Made by a program: the position numbers and the translations under genes. The notes under the pieces were generated by a model that made no database searches, was not told where the DNA came from, and saw nothing but the letters and a program-made list of their open reading frames with translations. Below, piece by piece: positions 1,086-49,039 of a stretch of 64,000 nt of DNA; position 1 is the stretch's first letter, and each line of letters starts with the position of its first letter. The stretch comes from Obrimoposthia wandeli (Eukaryota), in the NCBI GenBank assembly GCA_977020255.1, contig CDROCS010000289.1, positions 558,001-622,000 of the forward strand, written 5' to 3'.

Positions 1086-1459
1086 TTTGCAAATATTGTT
1101 CCTTCAACTTTCTTACGTTTGTTTATATTGATTTTTTGCTTCTTTTTACTTTTAAATCCACTACCTCCTTGGCTTTTATTTGATTTACGTTTTCTAATCA
1201 AATTAGCAACTTCAGGTAAAACATTATCAAGTTCATCAAGCACATGCTTCTTAAAAGTTGGTATTAGTTTATTGTCTTTAGATGAAAGGTAATCCTTTCC
1301 TACTTTTGATATAAATCGCCCGAGTCTCTTTAAAAGAGGAAAGGCAAATATACCTAATGTTTTAAGCCAGCCAGATCCGTATTGTTTACCAACAAAATAT
1401 GGTAATTCTCCACCTTGTTGGCTTTGACTATAAGCTTCATTTATTGCTGGATTCGCCAT
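1082..1459 (-). CDS. Small basic Polinton core-like protein (125 aa) between minor and major capsid genes
   Basis: Intact ORF with the YxQxQxGGxxxYFxGxQxGxG motif typical of this position in Polintons and a Lys-rich C-terminus. A homologous relic lies at 39185-39540. Confidence 0.8.
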   Translation of the reverse strand: MANPAINEAYSQSQQGGELPYFVGKQYGSGWLKTLGIFAFPLLKRLGRFISKVGKDYLSSKDNKLIPTFKKHVLDELDNVLPEVANLIRKRKSNKSQGGSGFKSKKKQKININKRKKVEGTIFAK

Positions 1460-1460
1460 T

Positions 1461-3520: not shown

Positions 3521-3606
3521 TACAACAATTTGAATAGAAAGAAAATTTAAATTTAGGTAAAGAAGGGTTAGCACCCATATCTTTAACTAATTTTATAAAT
3601 AATTGT

Positions 3607-3935
3607 TTATGAACGTGTCGCAGCTATAATACTACTGATAATTGAAGCAACAACTGGAATAACAGCCCCTATGAAACCACCATTCTGTTTAAGAATAATA
3701 TTTCGTTTCCTTTTTTTACTTTTTACATTAGCAATATCTAGAAGAGTTTTTCTATATTTCTTTAATATATTTTTCCGATGTCCAACTTTTACTCGACCCA
3801 AAACTATATTATACAAAACTTCCAATAAATCATCTACAACAAAGGATGGAAATGCTTTAAGAATAATCATTCTCTTATGAGAAGAGGCTTTGACTAAAGC
3901 TTTAAAATAGGGTATGCTTCTTTGTATTTTCTCAT
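3607..3935 (-). pseudogene. Conserved small basic Polinton ORF ending in QNGG plus an amphipathic helix (109 aa when repaired)
   Basis: ATG at 3935; a 1-bp deletion at 3921-3923 is needed to join MRKYKRSIPYFKALVKASSHKR to ORF 3607-3870 (...LLEVLYNIVLG...KQNGGFIGAVIPVVASIISSII). Second copy at 47168-47480. Confidence 0.8.
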
Positions 3936-3979
3936 TTTAATAAAAAAAGGTTCAATTTAAATATAGTTTATATTCCAAG

Positions 3980-4108
3980 CTATTTAAGTTTTTTTTTATT
4001 TCTAACTACAGATTTGATTAATTTTTTCACTTCTTTTTTCTTAATGATTATTTTTTTTGATTTATTAGGCTTTGCTTTACGTTTTACTATCAACTTCGTA
4101 AAAAGCAT
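3980..4108 (-). CDS. Very basic micro-ORF (42 aa, 17 Lys + 2 Arg), putative DNA-condensing core peptide; not in the ORF track
   Basis: MLFTKLIVKRKAKPNKSKKIIIKKKEVKKLIKSVVRNKKKLK*. The homologue at 47510-47660 reads MPFKKLIVKRK...KLIKSVVRSKIKLKWLQI*, so TAG 3980-3982 is probably a mutated Trp codon. Confidence 0.65.
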   Translation of the reverse strand: MLFTKLIVKRKAKPNKSKKIIIKKKEVKKLIKSVVRNKKKLK

Positions 4109-4115
4109 TATAAAT

Positions 4116-4763
4116 TTATATTTTATGATTGTTCTCTATTTGTTTATAAACAGTTACTTCCTTAGAATTAAATATGTCGGTTAAAACACGTAAATCATCT
4201 GGGCAAGCTTGTGTAAAGTCAATAAATATATACCCATGTGCTTGTTTAGCAGCATCGTGGAATGAATCAACTAGAAAGTTCTTATTTTGGGGAAATGCCT
4301 GTCTGGCCACGAAATCAACAACTGTTTGATCTCTAGGATTTTTAAATAAAACTAAGTTATGTACATTAAGATTTCTAGTTCTATGGTGACCTCCTTGGTG
4401 AAAAAGATTTTGAGTGATAAATATAACTGTTACTTCACGATGTCTTGCAATCTTCGTAAATAAATTATTAAAGTCTGATTCCTTGTTAGCTTCCTGATAC
4501 AAATCATCAATTATTATTACATCTTCTTTTTTCAATCTTTCACACCAATTTGCATCAAATCCTTCAATAAATTGTATTCCCTTCAACTTGCAAACTTCTG
4601 TTTTGGTTAATCCGCTTTCCCCTCCTCCACCATGATGCCAATAAATATTTTTGAAACTAGATTTGAAAAGAGATTCATTTTGCAACAATTTACATACGAA
4701 ATGTGTCTTTCCACTTCCACTGGGACCAACTATTTGAAATACAGCATTATTATTTAGCTCCAT
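4116..4763 (-). CDS. A32/FtsK-like genome packaging ATPase (215 aa)
   Basis: Intact ORF; Walker A GPSGSGKT, Walker B VIIIDDL, FTKIARHREVTVIFITQN motif. Confidence 0.95.
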   Translation of the reverse strand: MELNNNAVFQIVGPSGSGKTHFVCKLLQNESLFKSSFKNIYWHHGGGGESGLTKTEVCKLKGIQFIEGFDANWCERLKKEDVIIIDDLYQEANKESDFNNLFTKIARHREVTVIFITQNLFHQGGHHRTRNLNVHNLVLFKNPRDQTVVDFVARQAFPQNKNFLVDSFHDAAKQAHGYIFIDFTQACPDDLRVLTDIFNSKEVTVYKQIENNHKI

Positions 4764-4801
4764 TGCATATAGTCTTTCATTTTTTAATGTTGTTTATGTT
4801 A

Positions 4802-15389: not shown

Positions 15390-16570
15390 GGTTTTACTAT
15401 TTGGATAGTCTACTTTTAGGAGAGGTCATATATTATATGTAATTAACAGTATCGTTTAGTTATATTATAATACAGTTGATGGGCTCTTGAAATAAATCTA
15501 GTTTGCTCAACGCTTTTAATACACTCAGTATCATAAACTTTCGGGTACGCCTCATGTGTAAGATTGTTTCTTCCCACACCTTTTGTTCTCATTGAACATG
15601 TGTTATTAGATGCATGTAAACTATAGCATTTAGGGCGTAGAAAAATACAATCATCATACGAAACCTGACCCTCACTTTCATCCTTAAATTTCTCGATAAT
15701 ATCCTTTAAACTCATAGAGTGTAGAGGATGGTTAACGGGATATTTATGGGTATCAAGTAAGTTATATCTAAACCTTTCCGGTAATAATTGATTATCTAAA
15801 CTAACATTTTTACATTCTATAAAGAAATAGTCAGTGTCCCCAGCTACGATTTTGATCTCACAATTGAATTGTGGCGATATTTATCTAATTCTATATATTG
15901 AAGCTCGTACATTCTGAGTTTGGAAATATCTAAACCGTTTGATCTATATAACTCGGTTGATCGAGACAAATACTCTGGTTTTCTTGTTTCATCAGCTTGT
16001 CCTTCTTCTTCCGGACTGTCTGCTTTTGATTTGATGCAGTATTGATTTTTGCATCCACGATAGTTTCCGGTCCACCGGTAATATAGGAGCAGCCTCTTCC
16101 AGCATCTCCTTCACTTGCTCCACCTGATCGGCTTCCTATGTGAATAATTAAATATATTTTCTAATTTAAAATATTTTACCTAATATTATCTAGATACGCC
16201 AGATATCGGAGCTTACTCCTTAACACGTCCTGACTGCATTGACTCACTAATATTTTTGAGTGCATCTGGATATAAATAATTACACGGAATTTTTTTTTCA
16301 CGTCTGACAGGGTGCGTAAAATATTATATTGCGACTTGGGGAATTTCATAAGCTAAAAGCATCGTAGGGTCCTGCTTGAAATCACTTTTGTATCTATGCA
16401 CTTAATCTTCGGATTTCAGTTCGCCATCTTGACTACTGCTCTTATGCAGTTGAAAAGCATGCATATGTTTCAGGACATGTATAGATTTTTATACACCCAC
16501 ATGCACGAAATTTCACTCTATATACATTCACCTTCTACATACATAGAATAAACATTATTATAAATTTTGT
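15390..16570 (-). mobile_element. Internally deleted Maverick relic: opposite terminus and promoter fused to a pPolB C-terminal fragment
   Basis: TIR core at 16490-16570. pPolB motifs ICLDQPSYI..TVLDISKLRMY, IVAGDTD, YPVNHPLHS, KFKDE, FLRPKCYS, RTKGV at ~15390-15990. Confidence 0.85.
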
Positions 16571-22190: not shown

Positions 22191-22445
22191 TTATATATTC
22201 GGAATTAATCTGCAGAAGTTTGAAAAGTTGAATACAAGTGACTTCTCGACATCTTTGATTTTTACTATGGAACAGCTTGCTTATGTCTTAAATTTACGTT
22301 TTTTAATCCGGCATTGCCGAGAGTAGTTTAAAAGGAAATTATACTACCATGATAATTTTCTGTTTACGGGTGAAACAGAGATGAACATTTCCCTTCATCC
22401 AAGCACTATTTTTTTTCAGACATAACTTACATGTGTCGTACTTAC

Positions 22446-22721
22446 TTGAAGAACACGTATAGTGCGGCCTGATAACGCTGTTGGAGATTGGGCTGCTGGT
22501 AGAGTCAGCAGCACATCCATGACCATGTTCATAATGTTGAGCGGGAGCCAGCTCAGCGAGAAGATGAGTGCGATCATCAGTAGCATCACATTGGTGCGCC
22601 GCTGTCGTCGCTGCTCAAGGTCACGCTTTCGCTGCTGCACGTCGCCGAGAGTGCCGACCAGAGTCGCAGTTGTGGAGTTTGCTGTTGTGGATTTTGGCTC
22701 CGTACAGTTGGAGTGGTTGAT
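22446..22721 (-). CDS. NPY/NPF-receptor-like GPCR, exon with ICL3, TM6 and ECL3 (5' boundary 22721 or 22775)
   Basis: RRTNVMLLMIALIFSLSWLPLNIMN is the NPF-receptor-type TM6. Donor CAA|GTAAGT at 22445, phase 0. Two phase-0 acceptors are possible (GAGCAG|ATC or TTTCAG|AGT). Confidence 0.88.
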
Positions 22722-22939
22722 CTGCTCAGCCGATGGCCAGGTAAATACGATTAGACAGATTCTGTAAGTATTACTCTGAAATTTTGCCTATAATACGCAT
22801 CTGTGCACTACAATTTTATGAAATTATTCTGTCACATTCAAAAAAATGCTTCATTTATTTTTCATATTATTATAACAGTTTTAAAATTCTGTGAAAATAT
22901 CAAAAGTAGAAAATTAATATATATTATTAACATTTGAAC

Positions 22940-23490
22940 AAAAATTTATATTGATCAGATTAAAAATATTTAGGAATTTTCATACCTGATTACGTATGTG
23001 AAAAAGAAATGTTTAAGATTGAAGTGGATTCTAGTCTTATTTTAGAGATAATCTCAGTTATGTGATTGGTACTCATTTAGAAAGAGGCCTATGAGATATT
23101 TCATTATAGATTATTGAATACTATGTTGCTGCTGATGAAAAAACATAACCTCTTTGAACTTTGGATGATGAAAATATTGTATGTTATATTTTTGTTGATT
23201 TAGTAAATGTATTGAAATTAATTTTTGTATTATGTTTTTTTATTTCTTTAAAACATATATAAGCCTGACCTTAAAAACGATTTAAATAGTGCAATAGACA
23301 CTAAGATTTTTTACAAATATTCATTAATTTTAAGATTATACACAAAAAACATGAATTTTTATTCCAGACACATGTAAGGGCTTAAATGACATATTCTTGT
23401 TTGCCCTCCTCCACCTCAGGGGAAGGGATGGACGATGGTGGAGATTAGACTGAACAAATTCACCTCTTCATAACAATATTATACTTTCTG
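22940..23490 (+). mobile_element. Maverick relic: gene B 3' half and right terminal repeat
   Basis: Colinear, roughly 70% similar by eye, to 6585-7265. Confidence 0.8.
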
Positions 23491-23899
23491 GTTATGGATT
23501 CAAAAATAATTGTTGCTTTTCTTTACATTTTAGTTATTTAAATGATGAATTGGATAGTTTTATATTACACAGAAATAATTTAACCTTATATATGTACCTT
23601 TAAACTTTTTTTATCAATATTTATAATTTTATAAATACTAAGGAAAACATTTTGGGTCAACTAAAACTCAAATTTATTTATATCAATATTTTCTCAAACA
23701 ACAAAATTTGATGTAAATCAAACTACAAAGTTTCAAATTAACAGCTTCATAGAAATCTGGTAGAAAATCCTTTAATTAGCTTTGTGTCTATAAGTAGAGT
23801 TCCAAAGTTCGATGCAATTCAATGTATTTTGATACAGTTGGATGGAAAATTATCAAAATTTTAAAGATATATAAACATATGTACCCAAAAAGCTGAAAA

Positions 23900-24200
23900 T
23901 GGCATTAAAATATACATTCAGTTCTGCTTTATTATCATACGCCTCAACTGGTAGCTTTTGTTTGAATCAAATTAATACGAAACTTCTTTACGCGAGTTAG
24001 ATAATCCATTATTCTCTGATATCCCTGTTTAAAGCTTTCGGTTCCAACTTTTGAAAGAATATTTTAATATGTTTAGTAGTCGAATTTCCATAGACAAAAA
24101 CTTTATAAATGTCAGTAAGTGTCGAAGTTGTTAATCCACCGCCTTTTCGCTAATCCACAACAATAACCATCACTAAATTATGGTAATATCTTCTAAATTT
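23900..24200 (-). mobile_element. Possible non-LTR retrotransposon APE endonuclease relic
   Basis: D*RKGGGLTTS...GN resembles the R...GGG motif of LINE endonucleases; very decayed. Confidence 0.35.
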
Positions 24201-25865
24201 TCATTTTTTTATATTGTTTTGGTTCATTGCTGGTCTTGAATGAGACAAACCAAAATGTTTTCTTAAACATTACCAACCTTTCCTCAAGGCAACCATGAAA
24301 CAACTAATCATTATCAGACATATATCTAAACAAAACTTCAACAACTGTTTTACTCCCAGGACCTTTACTTAAATAGCTGTAATGATCAACGAAATTAGGA
24401 CGAAACAAATGGATATTCTTTAGAGACATTTATATTTATTTCACGCTCCCATTAAAGCAATCCTTTCAATCCTCTGACACACAATTCACAATTACAACTC
24501 ACATGACTGAACGAATACACTATATCACATACACACATGATCACGTACCCAATCAAACACGCACATAACCACAAGCATACATACAAAACAGTACGAACAA
24601 GGAATTTAAAAGTGTAGTTCGTTTCCTAGGCTATATTGGCCCATTCAAATTTCCTCATTAATTGTTGATTAAGCAAAACAAAATTAGATACAGATACATG
24701 GCTTATACATTTTTTAATTAAAAAGCTCAGGTAAATACAAATAAGAACATATTAAGATAATAATGGAAGGTAAAAACTAGAGCCACTAAATATTTTTAAG
24801 ATAACCATTTTCAGAATTTAAATCTTTATAAATGAATAAATTGCATTTATATTAAAAACGATTTTGTTGGTGCTGACATAATTTTCGAAATAATGTTTCA
24901 CTTATAAGGAATTTATGACAACAACAAAAAACACGTAAAATCATTGAAAAAGCTCAAATGAAAACATTTATACAAACGAGACAAATACTTTTAAGTTAAA
25001 TGGAAACTCAAAATCAATAGAATTCCCCCTTGGTTACAGAATGTCTGAAAGGGAGAGTTCATAGTGCATATACAAAATCCATAATATGTCATTTAACTTT
25101 TTAGTAATTTTTGTTAAAAATAAACGTATATATTTACATCTTAGTTGGTTTTTCAAATGCTGACTTGTTTTTAGGTTTTCGGTGTATTGTATACAGAATT
25201 TGAATTTTCCAACGCTCTTCATATTGGATGAAAGAATATTTGTTTAGATTTCTAGCCTTGGCTGATATATAGTAATTTTTTGTTAAAAATGTTTTTTCTA
25301 GACAATTCTATTTGATTCAATTAATTGGCCTCTACCACAGCGAAAGAAACTTAAGTGCACCGTCATTATATTATAATATTGTTGGGGTTTCTATACGAAA
25401 CTTGGTACAGATCCTCTTGAATGCGGAGGGCCCCAACGTGAGTTCGATTAGAAGCAGGTCTTAAAGTTGGTCGTGGCCTACTTAGTTTTATGGTTGCCTA
25501 ATCTCTTGTACTATCTGAAGGTATTTGATTTGATGTCTCTTAGTCTGAAGGGTGTAAAAACAACTTGTTCTAATGTAGGAAATTGTTTATTTGTAATTCA
25601 CGTAACTAACACAACAATACGTTTATGTACGTATTTCTAAAAAGTATGATAAAATTCCTAACGGACTTCTGTAAGTCTCTACAAGAAGTGGGGATGAACC
25701 ACGTATCGATTTTACGTTCAGGTGATTAACCTTTTAGGTTTATTCTTCTTACTTAGGTTGGTTAATCTATAACGCAACTCTCTTAAATTTCTTCGCTCCT
25801 ACTTCTGATCTCTAGATAAAGTTTCTTGATTCCTTAACTCTTATCTGGTGTGTGTTTGACCCCGA

Positions 25866-26324
25866 ATTGTTCACTGTGAACAATGGGTCTCCTAAAAACC
25901 TAATTGTCGAGATGACAATAAAAACTTACTCCTAATTGTCAACTATGGACAATGAACGAGCCGAATTGTCAGCTAGGGACAATGAGTCTTACCGAATTTT
26001 CAGCTAGGGACAATGAGTCTTAACGAATTGTCAACTAGGGACAATGAGTGTTTATCCGAATTGTCAACTAGGGACAATGAAGGAACCTAATTGTCAGCTA
26101 GGGACAATGAATCTTACGGGCAAAAAGTCTGGGTGTGATTCCTAATTGTCGCTGGGGACAATGAATAAATGGCCGATCTTAATTACCAACTAGGGGCAAT
26201 GATTTTGTTAAAGAGTCGGAAATCCTAATTGCCAGCTAGGGGCAATGAATATGTTTAATAGTTTAAAATTTAGAATTACCAACAAGGGGTAATGACAGTA
26301 TCCTAATTGCCAACTAGGGGCAAT
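25866..26324. repeat. Array of 13 palindromic repeats (ATTGTC-N5-7-GACAAT) with variable short spacers
   Basis: Copies start at 25866, 25903, 25935, 25965, 25996, 26027, 26060, 26090, 26145, 26182, 26228, 26275 and 26306. Confidence 0.9.
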
Positions 26325-26448
26325 GAATAGTTTAGTTGGTGTTCTTACCAGTTACTGCGACTAGTGGGACGTCCGATGCGGATCCGTAGGTCTTTCGGAA
26401 TCTTCTTCGAAGCAGAGATTATCCCTTGTGTGAGGTTTGAGTACACGC

Positions 26449-26832
26449 TTGAATACACTTTGACTTTGAACCTTTAATACACTTTGACTTTGAACCTTGA
26501 ATACACTTTGACTTTGAACCTTTAATACACTTTGACTTTGAACCTTGAATACACTTTGACTTTGAACCTTTAATACACTTTGACTTTGAACCTTTAATAC
26601 ACTTTGACTTTGAACCTTTAATACACTTTGACTTTGAACCTTTAATACACTTTGACTTTGAACCTTTAATACACTTTGACTTTGAACCTTTAATACACTT
26701 TGACTTTGAACCTTGAATACACTTTGACTTTGAACCTTTAATACACTTTGACTTTGAACCTTTAATACACTTTGACTTTGAACCTTTAATACACTTTGAC
26801 TTTGAACCTTTAATACACTTTGATTTTGAACC
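26449..26832. repeat. Minisatellite, 16 x 24 bp (AATACACTTTGACTTTGAACCTT(T/G))
   Basis: Directly visible; almost perfect, with one T/G variant position. Confidence 0.97.
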
Positions 26833-29800
26833 TGTAATACAATCAATTAATTTTTTCTCCAAACCAAATCACTACCTGGTTCCGTGGTTGATCCCGTATT
26901 TTGTGTTTGTGAATTGTGTTTATTTGTATCTCCTTATATAAAGGCCTTCTTGTCAATCAATGACAGCTGATAATTGTTGCTGGAAATAGGAGAACTGAGA
27001 TCTGTCGCTCAATCGACAGCTGAAAAATAAAATTTAGTTTACTGCACGAAAATGTGCTTACCTCTTGAATCCTTGATTGACGTTTTTAATTAACTCTTAA
27101 TTTTCTGACTTTCTCCTTAATTAATTTTTTGTCGTTGTCCTTTTGGTTAATTAACTCTAAACTTTTATACATTTTCGCATAATACACGACCTTCGTGGTC
27201 CTCCTAATTTTTACCCTAAATTCCACTAATTTTAATTCTAAAACTTAAATTAATATTTTAATTTAATTTTCAACCTTGCTTTCAAGGATTTTTATTTTAG
27301 TATTTAATCGACTAAAATATTTAATTTTCTTAATTCTCAATCCTAACAATATGTCATGAAACAATAAACGGAAAATAGTACAATTTAAAATAAATAAAAT
27401 TCAAAAATTTTAAAATTAGTTTACTTCATATCGTACAATTTCTAAAATGAAATTATTTAACTTGTATTATCCATGTACCTTTATAATAAAGACTAAATCA
27501 GTATTAGTAATAAATATTCATTATTATAAATAACCATATCTTTAAGTTAATGATTACATTTCAAAAGTTTGGATACTAATATTTTAAAAGGTAAGAAAAT
27601 GGCATAAAGTCATAATATGACTTTATACTATTTTGATAAGCCTTTGAACTATCTTTGCATTCATCAATAATTGAAAATAATTACAGTATTGTAGATAGAA
27701 TTGGTCACTTATCAAAGTCCATAGAAACTATATAGTGATAGTTTCACTTTTGAAAACATACAAATTTGAATGTTTATAAAACTGAACCATTTTCATACAT
27801 ATTTGATCAATGGAGACCAAACGGTTCTCTGTCGATATTCCCCTTATATACTAATTATTATTTTTTAATTATTAACGTTTGTTGCATTTTCTAGTTGTAA
27901 GATCATAATATGTATATGCATATTAATATATAAACCAAATATGAACTTACATGTTTTGAGATAAATTAAATTTAATTCGGGGGCTCATTCTTTTCTCATG
28001 GCTAAGGCAAAGAAAACTAATAAATCAACTGTCCCATCTCTTGAAGTTACTACAGAATTGCATTATTTCACAATACGTCGTATTTAAAAGTATATAAGAT
28101 TAAACTTTTACCACAGTTTTGTTAGTTTTCCTTATAAATATATATTCAAGAATAATATTTGGTTTTTATCAATAAAAATAACAATAATATATTTAAAATA
28201 AATATATGATTCATTACTCAAAAGCACTTCATGTTTCTCATTATTCTTCGTAGTGTTTTCTGAATATGCTTCAGGTGCTTCTAGAACTTTCCAACATTCT
28301 TAAAAAAAGTATTCACCAAAATCAGATAATTAGAATGTTTGATTAGCGAAGTTGTTTGAGGATAAGGGTGATATTAAGGTAAAAATTAATTCTGATGTAA
28401 TATATTTATAGTAAGTATGATGATTTAATTAAAATAAATATTTAGTGTATATTGTATTTTAAATTTTATAAAATTCATTAAATGATTGTAAAAAAACATT
28501 TTAATTGACCATGGTGTTTTTTGTTGTCAACTTAATCGTTTTATGTTCCTCCAACTTCTTCTTTAGTAATTTTGTGATATACAAAATAATTTTGAAAGAA
28601 AGGTTTTTCATAAATATTATCAAGATAGTTATAAAAATCAATTACTTTTCTTTTTTTTAAGGGAAAGGCTCAAATTTACGAGATGAAATATTGTCTCTGG
28701 ACTATTAACATATGTATGAGAATAATTTTTATACCACATATAAACCTTTCAAATGTAGCTTTGGCGTCTAGGAAGACATACTGACAAATCACAATTACTT
28801 GGAGCTGATATTTCAAGAACCCTTACAATGTTGATTTAAAGAGGCAGTTTCCTATCTGTAGATTCTTTAGTAAAAATAGCTAAAATGAGTGAAATGTAGA
28901 ATTTTTATTGAGTGGGATTTAACATAATAAATTATTTGTGTTTGAGTATGCTGAAAATACTATGAAGTTCTTCAAAGACGAAAATAAAAATTGAATGTGT
29001 TCTTTTAAGATACATCTTTCTTTAAATAAAATTATTTCGATTGCCTTCGAATATATATAATATTTCTTTATTCTATGGAACACTGCAATTTATTATTTAT
29101 TTGTTTCTTTTACATAATTAGTTACTACAAACAACTTTTTCCGACATAAATGTCATTATGTTGACTTTGTAAGACAACAAAATAAAAGTTATAGAAATAG
29201 AAGGGGATGAAAAATATAGAAAATTATATACATCAAACAGAGCCCTGCAACGACAGTGGTGGGAGAAAATTGTCCCAATAATTTTATTCCTCATTGGTAG
29301 TTCTGCTTAAGTCGTATAATTTTTTAGATGGTAAAATATGGTTTTTGAAAATTTTTGGGTATTAATTATTTTAAAATTTGGATTTATTTTATAAAATACT
29401 CTATTAATATAATTTCAAACACATTTAATGTGAAAAATACTACTAATAAAATCAACAATTAAAGCCAACAATTAACAGAGCTCGAATATACTTAAAATAC
29501 TGTCTCAAACTTAATCAAGATGATGATGAATATGGGTATGGCGTTGACGTATATTACTGATACTAAAATTACCTCTATCTCGTTACCTGTTGTGGTCAAA
29601 GAAAGCCGGGCCAGCTGAGATTGAGAATTTAGTCAAAATTTACTACCAGAAATTTCTTCATATAGTTGATTGTTTCTATGTGATACTTGCGAAGGAGATT
29701 AGCTAATTTAATATTCATTATTAACGAACTATGGGGTGTGCGTGTTTGTTAGTTTTACAAAATTTCAGGTACTTTTTATAATGTAGGACTTTAATCTAGT

Positions 29801-30965
29801 GACCAATTTTGCTAAATTACACCATTTTTGATTACGAATAATTTATGCTTTAAAGTGGTGTTTGATTCATAATTGTACAATTGCATATAAATAAATCTTT
29901 AAAGTTTAATTAATTAGGGTTTAGATAAACTAAAATGACGTTGTTTCTGAATTATTTTTCATACATAGTTCGGTATTATTCTGATTCTCAAATAAGTGCA
30001 TTGAATATAAAGTTATTCATAAGATTAATAAATTTACATAGAATTAATTAATATTTCCTGTAGATCAATGTACCGAAGCTAACAAATTATTTATATGAAT
30101 AAAATTTAATAAATATTTCAAATATTTGACTGTTATATTAAATTTTATATTATATTAAATACATTGTATAATACTTTATCATATGACTTTGTTCATATTT
30201 TGTCTCAGCTAAAATCAACATTTAAATGTTTAGGTTTAATTAATTGGTCAAATGTATGTAATTTATTTATAGAATGTTGGGTATGTTTTATTGTTACAAA
30301 TATAATAATTTCATTTCAATAGTTTTATTTTATTCATGAAATATTCTTAAAAATATCAAAATTAAGAACCATTGTTGTGCTCTATTTTAAAATGAAATAA
30401 AATCCTAAAAATATGATAAAAAATATAGCAAAAGATTTTTAAAATATAAAATATGTGTAGAAAAATAAAAAGTGTGACATAAATAGAACTAATGAAGTTT
30501 TTATAAGAAAATTAAATGTTCCATTTTATTATTTAATCAATTTTAATTTCAACGTTTAGTCGGGGTTTCGTTTTATCAGATCCCATAATCACGACAGATC
30601 GAAAATATCACATTAATTAATTGGTATAGACAGCGGTTTTATCATTTATCTTTGATAACCCCAACATATACAGCAATATTAATAAGATTAGATTTCGTAT
30701 ATCGAGGTTTTATCACCAAGTACCATCAGGATTCACTTGTAGAGGTCATCTAGTGCCGTTAATAATTAATTGGAATAACAGGCTCTTTTACAATGGCCGG
30801 CCTTATTTGTTACTAAGTCACCCTTGTCATCTTGAGGCGTTTGTTAACTCTAAGCTGCTGCTATGTATCGTTCATTATAGTCATTGAAGCGGTTTATGTT
30901 TTACAATTTTTAAATACTTTTAATCATAATTCTTAAGAAAATACATTTTCACTTTCCTTTATTAA

Positions 30966-31120
30966 CCCATTATATCCCAGCGTCCTCATTTGAGGACACT
31001 CACATTTTTCATGTGTGGTGATCTAAATAGTACGCAAGGATTAAATTGAATATATGTACCGTATTTATGACAATAATTTTATTATTACACACAATAATTA
31101 AAAACTTGGGATATAATGGG
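30966..31120. mobile_element. piggyBac-type MITE (155 bp)
   Basis: Perfect 14-bp TIR CCCATTATATCCCA; TTAA on both sides (30962-30965, 31121-31124); subterminal palindrome GTCCTCA-TT-TGAGGAC. Confidence 0.88.
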
Positions 31121-31899
31121 TTAATGTCATCTACAAGGTCAGATATTCAGAATATATCATGGTTATTTAAAATTAGCACGTACCAAAAATTGCAAAAGGA
31201 CAATGTTATATGAACAGTTCGTACGGCAATAACTGTGTACTACAAGCCCAATTTGAAGAAGAGGAAACTCGACCTGCATTATTATATCATTAGATTCAAA
31301 TAACTAAGTGGACCCGGTATATTTAGGTTTACTACTTGAGGGTTTTGAAATGTTAACGATAAGGCAAAAATTTCAATGTACCAATTATGTGTATTTAAAT
31401 ATAATCTGCATATATATAAAAATATATTAAAAAATTGATACGCTTTTTTTCTTTTTGACACTAATGTTTCGATTTAAAAATCGAACCCTGACCTTTAAAA
31501 AAATAATTTAATTAACTTTCGTCTCGGAAATTCTGCTAAGCTTACATTGATTCGAAAGAGATTAAAAAATAATTTGGAATCTCCCATTCGATTCTTTTAG
31601 CATAATCTTTAAACTCCGACAGTAAATTTTGGTGTAGAATATTATGAACTGTTGAGGGGGGATATTCAAAATAGAATAAATAATACGTACTTTTATTCGA
31701 CTATCTATATGAATTCTTTTACATATTTAGTCTTCAATTGAAGCAGTATCTGCTGGTAACTACAGGAATAATTATCCAAAAATGTTTGTCACCATAATAC
31801 ATATTACTTTAAATTACAAGTTTTAAAAAATCCATCTTGAATTTCTTTTTTGTCTTAAAAAAATTTTGCGAACACTTGAGTAGGCGGTTTTTGTGTCTT

Positions 31900-32410
31900 T
31901 CCGCAATTTAGTTGTGATATTAGAATTGTTGCTGGGGATACTGATAGTTTCTTCTTGAAATGTAGAAATGTTGATGAATAAGCTCAATTGTTACCAGAAA
32001 TGATTTCTGATAAATTATTAGATACATCCAAGTAACCTAAAACTCACCCTATTTATTCAACTAGTAACACAGCCAAAGAAAAGTTTAAGAATGAAAGTAA
32101 GGGTGTTTGTACTTTTATGTATTTTCCTTCATCCAAAATGTTATAGCCTAAAAACTAGCAATGATAAGTCACATATGAGAACAAAGGGAATATTAATTAA
32201 ACATATTAATATAAAACACGAAAATTATTTAGCTGTTTACGAGACAGGTATAAGTGATCGTGTTCAACAAATTCATATTACTCCCCTTAATCACCAGCTA
32301 TATACTATGCATTTATCCAAAATAGCATTGGGTAATGTGGATGAAAAGCGGAAATGGGTGGAAAATAATTTGTCAATCGTTTATAGTCATTATCTCGATC
32401 CGGAATGAAT
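31900..32410 (+). mobile_element. Maverick pPolB C-terminal relic
   Basis: RIVAGDTDSFFL, LDTSK*PKTHPIYS, KFKNE, LHPKCYS, RTKGI, HQLYT, SKIAL...DEKR; stop at 32408. Confidence 0.85.
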
Positions 32411-33734
32411 ATTTATTGTATATTCAATTGTTTTCTTATCACATTTGTATCATGTTTTTTGTCGAATTCTTCACTGTTTTAAAAATGAATTAAATTATTA
32501 AAATGTGACCTTGATTATTAAATAATGTGCAATATAACAAAATTTGAACTTCATGATAATGATCTTGAAAAATAGGCGTATTATAGTACGTTTTTAAATT
32601 TTCCCGAATAATAATTGATTCATTCAAACAAAAGCATACAAATTTAGACCAAAATTGGTCTAAAACGTACGCACTGTAACACATAATGACTTACTTTGGA
32701 GTTTGATTTTCTATAACTGTGACCTACTTTTGACATGTACCTTGAAATATGGACGTACTATAGTGCGTTTTTTAAATTTCGGCGATATTTTTAGTTATCG
32801 CAAGGGGTGGCCGCTAATCCTCACTCCCCAACTATGTTGAAACTATCAGACTTTATTTAACATCAGAAATTTAATTTTTCGTTTATATTGTGTAAGCATT
32901 TACCAGAAATGTTTTTGTACTGAATTACTTAACTCTATTTTTGTATCTATAGACTTGTTTTATCAATGTGCAAATTCATGTACTTTGAGAAGATACAATT
33001 TCTATAAAGTAGTATATTTTTTGTAGCATAATTCAGTTAATCACTTTTGATAATTTTATAAAACATGTTTATAAAATAAAAATACATTATGTTGGCCTAT
33101 ATACAAAGGATTGAATGGTCATGTACAAAAGGGACAGATTATGACGACATTACTGTAATTATCTAATTTTTTTATAAATGCAAAGACAGTACAAAAGCTT
33201 ATTAAATATATATTATTGCAAATTCTTCACATTTTAAAATATTAGTATCAAAACTATGCTTTGTTGATGTTGTTTTAAGTTATTTTTACACACATACATG
33301 AACAATACAAGAATCATTTGTATTTTTTAAATTATACGCTTCGACGTAAACAATTTTTATTTGTTCTTAATTCAAATTAGTTTATAATAAACTAAATGTT
33401 TACTTGCATTTCATTGTCTGTGGTAAAGGCCAATTAATTGAATCAACCAAATTTTATATAAAAATCATTCCACATAAGGCTATATATATATAAGCTAAGG
33501 AAATAAATCTAAACAAATATTCATCCATCCAATATGAAGGGTGTTTATATATACCATAATTATATTGGAAACTAAAATATGACCATTGCTTTTTCAGACT
33601 TATTCAAACAACTTATTATCTATCAATTTAGACATCCAAACGTTTATTAAAGACATCATTCAAGTTCAAAATAGTTAAATTGCAGATTTGAAAAATGACA
33701 AAATGAAGTATTGTAGGTTGGAAGGGATACTCAC

Positions 33735-34079
33735 GAGGGAGTTGTTGATATTGCGAGACCGGAAACGAGCGCGAATACGCAGATAAATGCGCGTGTAGAC
33801 GGTAACAACGACGAGCAGTGGTAGCAAGTACTGAACTGTGAGTGCGAGCACAGAATAGACGAGCTTGAGACGGCGGGTGGCGACATTAGGATCATACTCA
33901 GTGCAGACTTGCGGCCCGGTGGGCGTCGCGGCAGATTGGCTGGAGCTAATGGGCAACAGTGTCAGCTTGGTGAAGTAGAGCATCGGAGAGGCCACAACAA
34001 TGGCAACTGCCCAAATCAGTAGCAGTGACCAAGAACTGGCTACGTGCCGGGACGACGACCGCGTTGGGTGGATGATGAG
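33735..34079 (-). CDS. NPY/NPF-receptor-like GPCR, exon with ICL2, TM4 and TM5
   Basis: CTGCAG|CTC acceptor and CTC|GTGAGT donor; 345 nt, phase 0-0. LIIHP (follows DRY-Q), LIWAVAIVVASPM, ECL2 Cys (VCTE), YSVLALTVQYLLPL. Confidence 0.92.
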
Positions 34080-35829
34080 CTGCAGTGGATGAATGATATC
34101 TTTCAGTACAATCGCTGTATATATGAACCGTGCAATCGTTTTCTAAATTTCAATTATCTCTCTTATTTACACCTGTGGTGAAAATTATTTTTTTGATAAA
34201 TCCTATCACGTCAATATTCAGCAGATTTCGGATATATCGAATTTAAGTGTACCCTAAAAGAAGATTTATTACATTCGAAATGTAGAAATATACCTATGGA
34301 AATAGGCCAAGGTACGGCAACTAAAATATATATCGAAATATGATTAATTTAATAAAGTTCAGTTTTATTTTTTGTAATTCCAGTTAAAAATTAAATAATT
34401 TTCTAGTTGATTAGTTAAAAATAAATGTCACTGCTGATGGTACTTCTGCTTCATGAGTTTTGTCATATTAGGCTACTTTTGTGGAACTTTCTAAATGTCA
34501 TGTTTATAATTCGACAATATAATGTAATATAAATGATAGTATAGGGGCAACAAACTAAAAAAGCTCACTTCAAACTAATGTAATAGTAACTAATAAAGAT
34601 CTGAATGATGTGATCGTATTTCTCTTGAATTCGGATATTTTGGAATATACTTTTATCAGAAAGGAAGCAACTTAGTTTGTGGGATATTTCAGAAAATAGC
34701 ATGTGCCTTATGTGAAGTTAAATATGATCGCCTATTTCATCAATTTGAGGGTGTTACAAGTTTTTTATAAAATGTGTCAAACATTTCCTAACATTCGGGT
34801 GATTGGACTTCAAATTATTTAATTTATTAGAACGACAGACAACCGAACTGAATCTGTTAATCAAATACATAAATTTAAAATAACAAAAAAGGAACAACTT
34901 TTGGAAGCTTATAATTCTCTTAGCTTGTAAAGATTGCAGATAATTTAAAAATACGCTAAACTATTTATACCATTTGTTTTAGATTAAGTACAAAAGGAAT
35001 TAAAATGTTGCCATTGAGAAACGTTATTATTTATCACAATGAAAACAAAGCATTATTGGAAGTTTTCCAACAATTTTCATCGTTATTTCACCATATATTC
35101 CCTAAACGGCAAATTCACTAAATAGACTAATATGACATGTGTTTATGTAGTATTCACTGAGTACGCATGCACTTCAAGAAATAGCATGCTGTTGACATAT
35201 ACATATTAAAAACTGATCATAATAATCATAATCAAATTAGTTTTTGTTATAAAAAAATCATTTTCTTCTCCAATTTTTTAATAAGTTATAATGAATTAGG
35301 AATAGCATTATAATTCAAATACACATCGAGCTAAAGTTTATGATTTAGCACACTAGAATTTATTTTTGGAAACAGTCGCTTTTGCTACGATGAATGAGAA
35401 AATGATGATGTGGCATATAGTTAGTTATTGGTGTCCAATCATAATTTAGATTTGATTTAATTGACTCAACGAAATCAGTGACTCGTGTATTTACTTGCTG
35501 ATTTATTGAGTCTAAAATACAAAGTCATTAATCAAGAATACAGGTTCACAATATTAGTTGTGGTTGCCAACAAATATGCAGTATGTGAGTACTAAAATCT
35601 ACAAATTGTCAATCTACTCCAAATGTGTATTCTAGTATGTAATCAAAAGCTATTTTGATGGAACCAAAAATTCTTTTTTAACGGAAATTTAAAAAGTCTT
35701 ATTAAAAATAAAGATGTTTGTTTCACTATATTAAATTTTAACTAGTCAATTGACAATAATTTTCAAATGAAAAATTAAAATATGTGTAATTTTAGAATTT
35801 TAAACATATGTTTTCGAAATCAACACGAA

Positions 35830-38578: not shown

Positions 38579-39184
38579 GGCTTCTGTCTAGTCAGAGTGA
38601 ACACAGTATCTTTCTCAGTATTTTCCCCTTTCTTTCAATTTTCCCCGATCAACTTTTACTTTCACTTATACCTATACATTCTTCTGTCAGCAGAAACTGA
38701 CTTACACTGTTCCCCAAATCTATTTTATTATCTTGCATTGTTTCTTCCAAAACATTTCCATTGTCAACTTCTTCTTCGTCATATTTGCAATTTCAGTGAA
38801 AGCGTCAGCTACAATAAATTTACATCAGAAAAAAATGTTTATAACAGTTTATTTACAGACAGAATTTATTATTTTACCACAAATCAATTTTTTATCTTCA
38901 ATTGAAAACAGTTTAAAATTTTATATCAAATATAAGTTATTATAGAAAGAAATTAAAGAAAGCAGTTTTTTTATAATACTGGGTGGACGAATTTTTGAAA
39001 ATCACAAATTTTTATCGAAGTTTTATATTGCAACATATATTATAAGAACTTATAAAATATTAATTATCCTATTAATTAATACTTGTAGCCCTTGTTGATA
39101 CACACATATCTAGAATTGGTGAAAAGTCTGTACATGTGAATCCGGACATTTCTGACGTTGAAAGCTTTTTAATGGATTACTTAA

Positions 39185-41541
39185 ACTTTCTTACGTTTGT
39201 TTATAGCCATATTTTGCTTTTGTTTACGTCTAAATCGTATACCTCCTTGGCTTTCATTTGATTTACCCTTTCTAATCAAATTTGCAACTTCAGGTAAAAT
39301 ATTATCAAGTTCATCAAGCGCATGCTTCTTTAAAGTTGATATTTATTTATTATCCTTATATGAAAGGTAGTTCTTTCCTAATTTTTATATAAATCGCAAG
39401 TCTCTTCAAAAGTAGAATAGGCAAATATACCTAATGTTCTAAGCCAGCCGGATCCATATTGTTTATCAACAAAATATGGTCATTCACAACCATGTTGGCT
39501 TTGTGTATAAACTTCAATTATTGCTGGATTCGCCATTTCGTTTTCTTAAATGTATTGTTAAACGTGTCTAGTTTGAGTTTCACATATCCATATTGATTTC
39601 AAAAGTGGTACTTGCAGTCCTCCTACAAATATTGGTTATATTAAACTAGTATATATATATATAACTGTTTAATAACATTGAAAAGTTTTGCTTGATTTTA
39701 AGCTTTTATGGTTTTTTCTGTATGGGTTTCAAACATATTTCCTGCTAGACCAAGATTTTTAGCGAATCTATCATCAAAGAAAAGCCGTTTTATATTGCTC
39801 CTTACTGTAAATGCTAACTTACCATTATCTAATGTTACACATTTATCCAAATATTCACTGAATTCCTTCATTAAAAATTTACATAAATTTACATAAATTC
39901 ACTTCACTATCTATTTTATAATCGTTTGAAATGTTTTCAGTTCCAGTACACCTTTATTTCTATTTTCAGCTAACAACGGTTTTGCTACTTTATCAGGAAC
40001 ATTTTAACCAATTTAGATGATACAATATCTCGTTTCTTATTACCTACAGTATGTTTGCTAACAAAACCGAATTGAACAGTTTCTTTTTTAGATTAAAATG
40101 TCAACCAAATATTTTTTTTGTCTATTTTCAAATATTATTTTATTATTTTCAATAAAAACTTTTTCAATTTTTACCTTCACATTTGAAATAGAATTTTCTT
40201 TCACTATGAAACCCGACAACAATAACATTTTCTTCATTATTCTTCATTTCTTTTGTAAACGAAATGTGTGAGTTTTTTTCTGATAGTAATTGGATAATAA
40301 TAAGGGAAAATTATGTTATAGCTGCTTCCCACTCTCTTTAGATATTTATAGGAAATTCCCAATCATTTATAAAGTTACTATAATCATTATGCGGCTGAGT
40401 CTTTGGACATATGTTACTAGGTAAAACCATACTCAAAGATTTCATATTATATTCGATGCTAAAATCCAAGTAGGATCTGAATAACCATGCCATTTTACAA
40501 AGTATTGTTTATGTTTACCAGGTCCATTAGATTTTAATATTTTTTGATATTATTTGTAGTCTTGCACGTAAATTTTTACGTAAAATTAATTATTATTGTC
40601 AGCATCTTTAATATAATACATTATCAGATTAATCGTTTTATCAATTTTACTTATACAAAATATTTCATCGCTTCAATTCTGAACTATATTTTTAATAAAT
40701 AGAGTTGAGCAATTGTAGAAATTCAAATATATTCGCTTTTCTTATTTTTCGTCTTTATAATATTTTCTATTTTATTCATCTTTATCCAAATATCCATAGA
40801 TTTTTTATCAGTAACATCTACTGGTTTCATTCTCTTGATATGTCTATGTTCAGAGTGATTATATGCATGCAATATTTTGGGAAAAACTTGAATTCAATTT
40901 TTATTTCCTTCTTTTGTGAAATAATTTTTTATTCGATCTTTTAAAGTACGATTAAATATTTCTACTACTGCTGCTTTGTACAGCGAAAATACCGAGTATT
41001 GATTTATATTCCGTTGTTTAAATAATGATTGAACTTATTTGTTATAAAATTCTTTTCCTAAATCAGTTTGCACATTTTGCACATAATAATATTTATGTAA
41101 TGGCTTCAAGCATAGCATTTGAAGATTTTGCTTTAAATGGAATTGCACAAGCAAACCTGCTTAATACATCAATACATGTTAAAATATATATGTATACCTT
41201 ATTAATGGAAGAATATAGAAATTACTAGCCCCACTGTTTTTTACTCTAGTTGGAAAACTTATTTTCTAACTGATCGCTTAGTCATTTCGGTGTTTTCTTG
41301 TAATTCTGTTTTGTTCATTTTGCCAATTTTTAAACTCCGGTGTAACCAATTAGATCTTTTCGATTGAACCATATCCTATTCATTACAACTATTTGAATAT
41401 ATAGAAAATTTAAGTTTAGGTAAAGAAGGGTTAGCACCCAAATCTTTAGGTGATTTTTAAAATAATTGTTTATGTCTGTGTCGCGGCTGTAATACCACTA
41501 ATACTTGAAGCAACAACTGGTATAACAGCCACTATGAAACC
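39185..41541 (-). mobile_element. Decayed Maverick relic: core ORF, minor capsid, integrase and 3' end of the QNGG ORF
   Basis: Colinear with ~1108-3680 of the first copy, with many stops and deletions. Confidence 0.95.
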
Positions 41542-45762: not shown

Positions 45763-47167
45763 CCCTCTAACCCCATTGGACTCTTTCTGTTTAATTATCG
45801 TAATTTTATGTAATCGATATATTTGTTTAAATAATATGGTTTATCAATTCTAGAAATGACAAACATAATTTTTTAATTACGCTTCAAACAATTTCTGTTA
45901 CGTATGTGGGAAGTTTTATTCAAAATTAAGAAAACATATTCAAATTTATATATTAAGTTTATTTTGTAGTAATTTTCAATAGTTGAAGGGATAAGACAAA
46001 AGCATCAAATTTTTATTGTATCACATTCTGCACTACTATTTTAAAGTGATAACGTGAACTAAAAAATATTTAAGTAATTGTTATTTTTCGATTAAGAAGC
46101 TTTTAAGGAATGAAAAATAAATGTAATATAACCTAATTGGAAATCTGCAATGAAGTCAGATACGCATTGTTAAGAATTACCAATTCCATCTAGAATTAAG
46201 AATATTAATACTGAAAAGTTTATTACAGAATTCATTAAATCTGATGATGATGACTTTGTTATGACGTTATATAAAAATATGTATAGAATAATTCACAAGA
46301 AAATAAGATCTAGACCGTGATTCAGATTTACAAAAAGGGAAATCAAAGAATTTATAAATAGGAAATTAATTGAATTAAATATTTTAATATACTTGACAAA
46401 GTTTGTGTATGTACAAATATCAATGGTCTAATGGTCAATTTCTATGATCACTACTGTAAAGATATTTAGATATTATTTGATTACTTTTTACAGAATATTT
46501 TGATAGTTAATAAAGCGGAGCTGATATAAATAAAAATATGGGGAGTATCTTCTTATTTACAACCGGAAGTGGGACTCTTTCCGGTGACTATTCTCATTAT
46601 ACTTAGCAATAAATCAGTCCATCTTTGATAAGAGAAATAAACATCTTTACAAGCTTTTGGTGTTCTGTGACATAAGATTTCTAAGCTTATGATGCTTAGA
46701 AAGTTAAATTAATATTTGTTTCATGTTTAAGAAATTAAAAGAATTCAGCTTTGAAATACATAAGATGAGCCAATAAATTATCAACATGAAACTCTCCAAA
46801 ACGTCAGATGAATTGATTTATCTGCAACTGAATAAATATTTTAGCGACAATAAAACTTTGGCTGGTCATTAAACTTTCATGACTTGAATTTAATTAACCT
46901 TATTTTATAAATTAAGAAAGTTGATTCTAACATTGAGGCTAATTAATTCTTTTGGGAATTTTAAATTTGAAGGTTGCAACTGTATTCGAGAGAATTGATA
47001 CATGTGACTATCTAAAAACAATTTTTAAAAATTAAAAATGCTCGTATGGGGAAAAATGTAAATAAAATGTGATTACTCAACTTTAGGTTCACTATTACAA
47101 CAATTTGAATATATATAAAATTTAAGTAAGGAAAGGATAGCACTCATATCTTAAGTGATTTTAAAAA

Positions 47168-48350
47168 TGTTTATGTACGTGTTGCAGCTATAATACTACT
47201 GATAATTGAAGCTACAACTGGAATAACAGCCCCTATGAAACCACCATTCTGTTTGAGAATAACATTTCATTTCCATTTTTACTTTTTATATTAGCAATAT
47301 TTAGAAGAGTTCTTCTATATTTCTTTAATACATTTTTCAGTTTTCCAACTTTTACTCGACCCAAAACTATATTATACAAAACTTGCAATATATTACAAAT
47401 ATTACAACAAAAGATGAAAATGTTTTAAGGATACTCATTATCTTAGAAAGAGCTTTGTTCAAAGCTTTAAAATATATTATTGTTAAAAAATATTCATTTT
47501 TAATATTGTTTATATTTGAAGCCATTTAAGTTTTATTTTACTTCGAACTACAGACTTGATTAATTTATTCCCTTCTTTTTTCTGGTCGTTTTTTCTTGAT
47601 CTCGTAGAATTGGCTTTTACTTTACATTTACGTTTTACTATCAACTTCTTAAAGGGCATTGCAAAATTATTTTTTATAATTGTTATCTGTTTGTTTATAA
47701 ACATTTATTCCCTTATAATTAAATATATATGTTAAAATATGTAAATCATCTGGGTAAGCTTGTGTAAAGTCAATAAATATATACCCATGTGATTGTTTAG
47801 CAGCATCGTGAAATGAATCAACTAGAAAGTTCTTATTTTGGGGAAATGTCTGTCTGGCCACGAAATCAACAACTGTTTGATCTCTAGGATTTATAAATAA
47901 AACTAAGTAATGTACATTAAGATTTATTGTTATATATGGTGACCTTCTTGGTGAAAAAGATTTTGAGTGATAAATATAACTGTTACTTCACGATGTCTTG
48001 CAATCTTTGTAAATAAATTATTAAAGTCCGATTCCTTGTTAGCCTCCTGATACAAAGCATCAATTATTATTACATCTTCTTTTTCAATCTTTTGCACCAA
48101 TTTGCATCAAATCCTTCAATAAATTTAATTCCCTTCAACTTGCAAACTTCTGTTTTGATTAATCCGCTTTTCCCTCTTCCACCATGATGCCAATGAATAT
48201 TTTTGAAACTGGAATTGAAAATATATTCACTTTGCAACAATTTACGTACGAAATGTGTCTTTCCACTTCCACTGGGACCAAATATCTTAAATATGGCCTT
48301 ATTTTTCAGCTCCATTACATAATCTATTTCATTTTAATATTTTTTATATG
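47168..48350 (-). mobile_element. Maverick relic: QNGG ORF, basic micro-ORF and disrupted packaging ATPase
   Basis: Colinear with ~3604-4790; GPSGSGKT retained in ORF 48070-48315; frameshifted. Confidence 0.95.
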
Positions 48351-49039
48351 TTTTAAAACTTTAATTATAAAGTACATTTGAGAATCATTCAAATATACAT
48401 TTTCTGTTTCATATGCTAGGATATTGAACTCAATTGCAACACATTTCATATAAAACATCATTATCAACTGCTGCAGTTTAATTTTGTTTATATGTAACTT
48501 TCCGAAAGTGTAATTTTGAACTCGTGTTTGCATCATGTGCAAAATTAACCCTATATAACACTGTTTAACCCTATCATTACAGTAGGTGGATGTGTAATTC
48601 AATATTTAATTCAATATTAGCTATAAAAAAATGAAAAGAATGCACATACATTTTATGATTTTAAAATTCAGCAATATTCAGCTTTAAAAATTGGTACACC
48701 TAGCTTGTACGTTAATATAACATTGTTTAACCTCCAATTTTTGTTTTTAAAAATGTTTTGGTGCAACAGAACATATTTAAAACCTTAAGCAATAATTTTA
48801 AAAAAAAAATTTAAAATACAAATCAACTGGAGATAGAGCTCCCATTTATATACTCGTAGAAGAGATTATTTTTTGGTTTTTCGAGAAGGTATTAAACTTT
48901 TAAATTTTCCAAACGTTTAGAGGAAATTTCATTAGAAATTCGGATAGTGGAATACTTAAGGTTTCATCACAAGCTGAAGATCGATTCTTAAAAGTACTAT
49001 AAAGCGTAATAGATTTGTTCTAGTTACAAGATTAGGGAG

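What the first reader, a model, noticed from the sequence alone, without database searches (positions are those of the whole stretch)
25866..26324. Array of 13 hairpins with compensatory substitutions in the LTR leader
Seen: the stem varies as ATTGTC/GACAAT, ATTGCC/GGCAAT, ATTACC/GGTAAT and ATTGTTC/GAACAAT, with pairing preserved by double changes. The copy at 26182 is a mismatch on the plus strand but a G-U wobble on the sense strand. Only one copy (25996) is truly mispaired. Most loops contain self-complementary CUAG or AGCU, and spacers vary (~10-35 nt). Known: retroviral dimerisation and packaging signals use stem-loops with palindromic loops. Inference: a multivalent RNA element (packaging, kissing-loop dimerisation or protein docking, like a natural MS2-type array) or a dyad DNA-binding site array.
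Basis: partly seen in the sequence, partly recalled or inferred. Interest (0 to 1): 0.72.

Follow-up and report, generated by a model that had tools for sequence, protein, structure and literature searches.

The report
Wobble-selected hairpin array in retroelement LTR
The end repeat of a giant, recently active retrovirus-like element carries a dozen tiny hairpins whose thousands of genomic copies vary almost only in ways that keep them paired on the element's own RNA strand, so they likely form a multi-site protein dock that would tune RNA processing; they are probably not the packaging signal, because many sister copies lack them.

Summary
Thirteen 6-bp hairpins (window 25866-26324, minus strand) lie in a solo LTR (25380-27348) of a roughly 23-kb, env-bearing, Burro-like Ty3/gypsy element with more than 5,000 copies. 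Of 30,345 genomic units, 99.7% fall in 5 of 16 possible stem states. These five form a one-step path through G·U pairs on the sense strand (G·U states 4,365 and 1,874; mirror A·C states 17 and 24) and are the five most stable as sense RNA. This favours selection on RNA structure over a DNA dyad, although independent events are few. Packaging or kissing-loop roles are unlikely: only 22 of 50 unselected elements carry the array, Gag does not track it, and one array type has no palindromic loops. A different hairpin array after the PBS is nearly universal. The array starts 24 nt after a splice-donor-like motif, upstream of a conserved AATAAA, in a slot that other LTR variants fill with unrelated repeats. 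Best reading: an optional protein-docking cassette acting on splicing or polyadenylation (inferred; no RNA data). The scan noted this element family before on other DNA, but not this array.

The parts
25380..27348 (-). Solo LTR (1,969 nt, TG...CA) of a giant env-bearing Ty3/gypsy element, flanked by a 4-bp ATAT target-site duplication
   Evidence: orientation from the PBS and ORFs of full copies
25866..26324 (-). Array of 13 hairpins: conserved 5' C, 6-bp stem AUU-R-Y-C / G-R-Y-AAU, mostly 7-nt loop with C first and G fifth, tail U(A/C)GG
26182..26200 (-). Hairpin 4, with a G·U pair at stem position 4; orthologous copies show G-C (8), G·U (32) and A-U (3) of 44
25996..26014 (-). Hairpin 9, mispaired, inside a 31-nt duplication private to this copy
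26343..26351 (-). 5' splice-site-like motif CTG|GTAAGA, with GT 24 nt before hairpin 1 (use as a donor is inferred)
26448..26841 (-). 24-nt tandem repeat, 16.4 copies; this slot holds different repeats in other LTR variants
26934..26940 (-). TATA-like motif (start site inferred about 26905; not shown)
25380..25713 (-). Conserved ~330-nt 3' block shared by LTR variants (its start motif found in 66 of 70)
25556..25591 (-). AATAAA (25586-25591) followed by a GU/U-rich tract: predicted poly(A) site; AATAAA present in 66 of 70 LTRs while its flanks vary
22419..34139 (-). Host rhodopsin-type GPCR exons (33675-34139 and 22419-22787); the LTR lies in the intron between them, in the same orientation

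Best explanation
The array is a run of short hairpins that keep their pairing on the sense strand across thousands of LTR copies of a giant Ty3/gypsy element, and it likely serves as an optional multi-site dock on the RNA for a host RNA-binding protein that would regulate the adjacent splice donor and the LTR poly(A) site. Shown: position in the LTR; five allowed stem states linked by G·U steps on the sense strand; pairing within units; fixed base of stem, 5' C, loop C1 and G5 and U(A/C)GG tail; a donor-like motif directly upstream; presence in only part of the family, independent of Gag. Follows from LTR replication: every LTR base passes through genomic RNA at least once. Inferred: the array lies in R, between the TATA-like motif and AATAAA. 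The hairpins are weak (-3 to -5 kcal/mol), so a bound protein would be needed to hold them. That protein would likely read the stem base and the exposed UAG/UAGG-type bases, as hnRNP A/B-type proteins do, and would bias donor use, intron retention or 5'-LTR read-through. The RNA-structure part has about 0.88 probability; the splice/poly(A) role about 0.42.
For: Genome-wide: the 11 disallowed states total 92 of 30,345. GC/GT 4,365 against its mirror AC/GC 17; GT/GC 1,874 against GC/AC 24. GT/AT, one C-to-T step from the commonest state and also a wobble but weaker, has only 22, so a C-to-T or A-to-G bias does not explain the pattern (control spectrum outside stems only 41:27). With the UCGG tail, the five observed states are the top five for sense RNA (pairing probability 0.97-0.99); antisense RNA and DNA parameters rank other states as high or higher. 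Register test: 3 A·C of 582 pairs within units against 31 and 40 of 534 between neighbours. Stems and loops change 4-fold less than spacers (0.34 and 0.36 against 1.40 steps per column). In 44 copies 99.2% of cells pair, and 34 cells change on both sides against 8.9 shuffled. A donor-like motif (at least 7 bits) lies within 90 nt before the repeat module in 33 of 45 non-redundant LTRs, against 3 antisense and 4 further upstream. Foamy virus has a donor upstream of the LTR poly(A) signal under U1 control (PMC3694450, abstract). hnRNP A1 binds UAG in a 7-nt apical loop (PMC10325567, passages).
Against: No RNA, start-site, splice-junction or binding data were obtained. Counts are copies, not events: wobble states shared by two or more copies occur at 7 unit-pair positions and A·C at 1, which alone is only suggestive; the number of pairs with double changes (5) is not above shuffles (137 of 500). 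The last hairpin has an unpaired terminal pair in 13 of 44 copies. Naked-RNA folding does not favour most units: pairing probability is at most 0.35 for 10 of 13 with unlimited span, and the antisense strand folds at least as well (z -3.0 against -2.4). UAG is in only 188 of 291 loops. The repeats that replace the array in other LTRs are not enriched for hairpins (2 of 35 at p<=0.05), so the slot's shared function, if any, is not structural. The donor score uses a matrix I approximated from memory.
Confidence: 0.42

Rival explanations
1. The same RNA hairpin dock, but acting after processing (nuclear export, localisation, stability or translation) from either end of the RNA, since R is present at both ends.
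For: All structural evidence above applies equally. If the array is in R it also sits in the 3' UTR of every transcript (inferred).
Against: Does not explain why the array starts about 25-30 nt after the donor-like motif in the array types examined. No RNA data.
Confidence: 0.25
2. A packaging or kissing-loop dimerisation signal read by the element's Gag.
For: Lies downstream of a donor-like motif; many exposed G in loops and tails; 177 of 291 loops hold a 4-nt palindrome; Gag has a CCHC knuckle.
Against: Missing from 28 of 50 unselected elements whose Gag is mostly 92-99% identical, with the same knuckle, and is intermixed with array-bearing Gag on the tree. L109's array has no palindromic loops. 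A separate hairpin array after the PBS is found in 66-70 of 70 elements, depending on the pattern, and fits the packaging position better. A copy in R would also be on spliced RNAs (inferred).
Confidence: 0.13
3. A neutral tandem repeat whose pattern comes from a few founder mutations amplified by transposition, with slippage or template switching.
For: Few independent events; the family is very young (paired LTRs 949 of 950 identical in 4 of 4 pairs); other LTR variants carry arbitrary repeats in the same slot.
Against: Crossovers in the loop or single transitions would make A·C and G·U states alike, yet only the G·U states spread. Hairpin-templated repair would erase G·U as well. Unit-specific loops persist while spacers drift 4-fold faster. 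The same stems recur with different loops and periods in L101, L109 and L111.
Confidence: 0.12
4. A DNA-level array: dyad sites for a dimeric factor (gypsy-insulator-like), or sense-strand single-stranded DNA hairpins.
For: Clustered 12-site arrays are known at DNA level (gypsy insulator, PMC2374998 passages). The arms resemble Sox or RFX half-sites (recalled, not tested).
Against: Arms are strongly co-dependent (GC/AC 2 observed against 43 expected, GT/GT 0 against 37). A duplex site has no reason to prefer G·T on one strand. DNA energies fit worse: the common GC/GT state scores 0.50 and the absent AT/AT state 0.81.
Confidence: 0.08

Closest known systems
Burro/GYPSM1 giant Ty3/gypsy elements of planarians (PMC6431247, section 7 read)
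   Same: Giant size, thousands of copies, one long polyprotein with a fusion-glycoprotein env in frame between gag and pol, BIR and RING domains, tandem repeats.
   Different: About 23 kb rather than more than 30 kb; one CCHC knuckle rather than two or three; carries a dual-specificity phosphatase; no MATH, BCL2 or ankyrin hit in the frames scanned. The section read mentions no LTR hairpin array.
Foamy virus LTR (PMC3694450, abstract and outline)
   Same: Splice donor inside the LTR upstream of the poly(A) signal, with RNA structure near the donor.
   Different: Foamy virus uses one alternative fold; here 12-16 repeated hairpins occupy a swappable slot. Donor use is not shown here.
HIV-1 ESS3 stem-loop bound by hnRNP A1 (PMC10325567, passages)
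   Same: 7-nt apical loop, often with UAG.
   Different: A single exonic element there; an array here, with UAG in 188 of 291 loops and C1 and G5 more fixed than the A.
Retroviral psi / dimerisation site (search listing; details recalled)
   Same: Structured 5' RNA downstream of a donor, exposed G residues.
   Different: Optional here, upstream of the PBS, and palindromic loops are not conserved.
Drosophila gypsy insulator (PMC2374998, passages)
   Same: About 12 degenerate sites with variable spacers in the 5' non-coding part of a gypsy element.
   Different: The insulator is a set of duplex DNA sites; here the arms covary by sense-strand pairing rules.

Membership tests
Ty3/gypsy LTR element | TG...CA LTRs, target-site duplication, tRNA primer site | tested here: met
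   the PBS matches the 3' end of genomic tRNA-Met genes
Ty3/gypsy LTR element | Domain order PR-RT-RH-IN | tested here: met
   L035 frame
Burro/GYPSM1 | Fusion-glycoprotein env in frame between gag and pol; BIR domain | tested here: met
   (PF24664, PF00653)
Burro/GYPSM1 | Two or three CCHC knuckles; total length above 30 kb | tested here: not met
   one knuckle; LTR-to-LTR spacing 20.6-21.8 kb. Filed as Burro-like only.
Burro/GYPSM1 | RT groups with Burro1-4; dugesiid host | not tested
   no Burro sequence was available from a tool; the host was not determined here
Retroviral psi / dimerisation site | Present in all propagating copies | tested here: not met
   22 of 50 unselected elements, 24 of 70 in all
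Retroviral psi / dimerisation site | Conserved palindromic loop | tested here: not met
   177 of 291 loops; 0 of 14 in L109
Retroviral psi / dimerisation site | Gag binding and RNA dimerisation | not testable with these tools
   needs biochemistry
Foamy-type LTR poly(A) control | Donor upstream of AATAAA inside the LTR | tested here: met
   motifs only:
Foamy-type LTR poly(A) control | U1-dependent suppression of the 5'-LTR poly(A) site | not testable with these tools
   no RNA run listed
hnRNP A1-type stem-loop silencer | UAG exposed in a 7-nt loop | tested here: inconclusive
   UAG in 188 and AG in 245 of 291 loops
Duplex DNA site array (gypsy-insulator type) | Half-sites vary independently, with no strand preference | tested here: not met
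Any Rfam 15 family | Covariance-model match | tested here: not met
   0 matches at E<=5 over the LTR

The most novel reading that the evidence does not exclude
This LTR has an exchangeable cassette slot just behind its splice donor, and one cassette is a natural MS2-like array of 12-16 protein-docking RNA hairpins by which a giant endogenous retrovirus-like element plugs into a host RNA-binding protein. Its 30,000 genomic units also trace a full compensatory path (U-A, U·G, C-G; G-C, G·U, A-U) with every intermediate still in the population.
Probability: 0.35. Interest if true: 0.8.

Novelty: new variant of a known kind. Interest (0 to 1): 0.6.

Why it matters
Repeat arrays in LTRs are usually read as DNA enhancers. 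Here the copy population points to selection on the RNA, in a module that recombines freely against the coding region, which suggests that LTR variants compete through post-transcriptional control. The data set is also a large within-genome record of compensatory evolution through G·U intermediates, including epistasis between neighbouring pairs (G·U at pair 4 spreads only beside C-G at pair 5). Natural array-bearing and array-less copies with near-identical Gag give a ready-made comparison in ordinary RNA-seq.

Tried and rejected
No RNA holder was listed. Runs X1-X4 are contigs of one sample that also cover intron DNA, so they say nothing on expression. A metagenome scan with the unit pattern found 0 stretches. 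Rfam gave no match. A bistable switch was considered: a second hairpin can form between loop and UAGG tail, but tails are UCGG in 198 of 648 units and do not covary with loops, so it was rejected. An H-type pseudoknot within one unit was rejected on geometry (no linker; reasoning only). Pairing between neighbouring units was rejected. A cognate Gag lineage was rejected (20 elements). Shared hairpin character of the other LTR modules was not found (motif in 5 of 35 against 3.0 expected), although L057, L101, L110 and L112 carry the same stem core with other loops. A search for copies spliced at the donor gave 3 hits, none joined to an acceptor; this is weak, since the pattern covered one exon variant and two of three candidate acceptors. 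An iron-responsive-element reading was dropped: no CAGUGN loop in register and no lower stem. A pseudo-triloop (C1-G5) is possible, but that pair does not covary in standard units. Literature searches for a described LTR hairpin array listed none. The original Burro genome paper and its supplements were not held and could describe LTR features. R-scape was not available.

Full report
1. Observation. Read on the minus strand, each unit is a conserved C, a 6-bp stem AUU-R-Y-C / G-R-Y-AAU, a loop of 5-7 nt and a tail U(A/C)GG. Spacers run 11-36 nt. The unit at 26182 is G·U on the minus strand. The unit at 25996 is mispaired and lies in a 31-nt duplication found only in the window's copy among 44 aligned. 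8 of 13 loops hold CUAG or AGCU.

2. Setting. The array is inside a repeat spanning 25380-27348, with TG...CA ends and a 4-bp ATAT duplication, that is, a solo LTR. It lies in an intron of a rhodopsin-type GPCR gene, in the same orientation. In G000, paired copies lie 20.6-21.8 kb apart. Between them, natural frames on the minus strand match zf-CCHC, a Monjiviricetes-type fusion glycoprotein, two aspartyl proteases, BIR, RING, RT, RNase H, integrase and a dual-specificity phosphatase (13 element frames scanned). The PBS matches genomic tRNA-Met genes. There are 5,213 LTR-PBS junctions. Paired LTRs are 949 of 950 identical in 4 of 4 pairs, so the family is very young. This fits a Burro-like element (PMC6431247, section 7 read) but fails two Burro features (knuckle number, length), and its RT was not compared with Burro. 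The host was not determined here.

3. Structure evidence. The unit pattern with four two-way positions has 30,345 hits. Three searches cover the 11 states outside the five common ones and give 30, 28 and 34 hits, 92 in all. The five common states, written as 5' arm / 3' arm variable letters, are GT/AC, GT/GC, GC/GC, GC/GT and AC/GT. Each differs from the next by one transition and each is paired on the sense strand. After subtracting listed overlaps, GC/GT has 4,365 hits against 17 for its mirror AC/GC, and GT/GC 1,874 against 24 for GC/AC. GT/AT is one C-to-T step from the commonest state but has 22 hits, so a simple mutation bias fails; outside stems the spectrum is only 41:27 in the wobble-making direction. 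Folding the 16 states puts exactly these five on top for sense RNA, with either tail; antisense RNA and DNA parameters do not reproduce the set. This comparison was made after the states were seen in samples, but before one search counted four of the weak states. Arms pair within their own unit: 3 A·C of 582 against 31 and 40 of 534 in neighbour registers, 24 arrays. In alignment A1, 99.2% of cells pair, 34 cells change on both sides (0 of 500 shuffles) and the covariation score is 0.064 against 0.044; but the number of doubly changed pairs, 5, is not above shuffles (137 of 500), and these shuffles ignore relatedness. A1 holds 44 of 47 distinct arrays of the main type. I left out L007, L016 and L022 as sister LTRs (L022 has one mispair, counted), the divergent arrays L063, L109 and L111, and L020, which did not parse.

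4. Limits. Genome counts are copies, not events. On a tree of non-stem columns, wobble states shared by two or more copies occur at 7 unit-pair positions and A·C at 1; recombination makes such counts rough. Pairs 1-3 are almost invariant and so say nothing about pairing. The last hairpin has an open terminal pair in 13 of 44 copies. The hairpins are weak, and naked-RNA folding gives at most 0.35 pairing probability for 10 of 13 units; the antisense strand folds no worse. The case rests on the pattern of variation, not on folding energy. No RNA data were available. From established LTR replication, every LTR base is copied through genomic RNA, so the objection 'not transcribed' does not apply to replicating copies.

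5. What slot it fills. I sampled 70 LTRs anchored on the PBS: 50 taken essentially in listing order and 20 picked to enrich a linker variant. They share a conserved ~330-nt 3' block but differ in the repeat module upstream. The array, at 9 or more units, is in 22 of the 50 and 24 of the 70. A marker unit of the main array type has 3,622 hits. Whatever the module, a donor-like motif precedes it: 33 of 45 non-redundant LTRs, against 3 antisense and 4 upstream controls (matrix approximated from memory). AATAAA is kept in 66 of 70, followed by a GU/U tract. With the TATA-like motif at 26940 this places the array in a long predicted R region, just inside a predicted intron, the arrangement described for foamy virus (PMC3694450, abstract). 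Gag is 92-99% identical in 19 of 20 elements, the knuckle is the same, and array-bearing and array-less copies mix on the tree. A second hairpin array after the PBS occurs in 66-70 of 70 elements and also shows A-U and G·U at one pair, 338 and 153, with no A·C; it is the better packaging candidate.

6. Mechanism. Most likely the hairpins form on the RNA with help from a bound protein that reads the fixed stem base, the 5' C, the loop G and the U(A/C)GG tail. Twelve or more sites next to the donor would then bias U1 use, intron retention or read-through of the 5'-LTR poly(A) site. An hnRNP A/B-type protein is a lead (PMC10325567, passages), not a result: UAG is in 188 of 291 loops. A post-processing role is the main rival. 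Packaging or kissing, neutral history and DNA-site readings rank lower for the reasons listed.

7. Known or new. There is no Rfam match. Searches listed no paper on such an LTR array, but the original Burro paper and its supplements could not be read. G·U intermediates in compensatory evolution are known (PMC3852009, passage citing Rousset 1991). Other papers seen: PMC2374998 and PMC8532177 (passages); as listings only apart from the papers named. The scan's earlier notes describe this element family elsewhere in the genome but not the array. Verdict: a real, selected RNA hairpin array; a new variant of structured LTR elements; function inferred; interest 0.6.

Noticed in passing
L033:4024-5173 and the post-PBS leaders of L049-L118: A second hairpin array (5-bp stems UCGAG/CUCGA, often with G·U at pair 4) lies between the PBS and the ORF in 66-70 of 70 elements, 2-21 units each; each arm contains the palindrome UCGA. 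It is the better candidate for packaging or dimerisation.
   Followed up: partly
L049-L118, LTR interior: The LTR is modular: about 45 clusters of unrelated tandem-repeat modules in 70 elements, on a nearly uniform internal region, each usually starting right after a donor-like motif.
   Followed up: partly
window 27020-27061 (minus): A 42-nt stretch with GTAAGC...TTTCAG ends upstream of the TATA-like motif looks like a mini-intron; if used, transcription would start further upstream or this part is spliced at the RNA's 3' end.
   Followed up: no
window 25380-25713 and homologues: The conserved 3' block holds several small hairpins, including a terminal one whose arms vary together across LTR variants.
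   Followed up: no
window 22419-34139: The solo LTR is in sense orientation in a GPCR intron and brings a donor-like motif and an AATAAA, so it could truncate host transcripts.
   Followed up: no
G000:C2252:485-11858 and C2837:586194-598329: Tandem arrays of tRNA-Met genes (39-40 copies at about 285-nt spacing on C2252), the likely primer tRNA of the element.
   Followed up: partly
window 15443-15880 and 32022-32408: Frames resembling protein-primed DNA polymerase B fragments (Polinton-like; recalled motif). The second had no Pfam hit; the first was not scanned.
   Followed up: no
window 645-4800, 39177-41541, 47059-48352: Dispersed copies of another repeat at 82-97% identity with broken frames.
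   Followed up: no
L033:8766-10000: A related LTR variant without the hairpin array is inserted 1.5 kb from a full element.
   Followed up: partly
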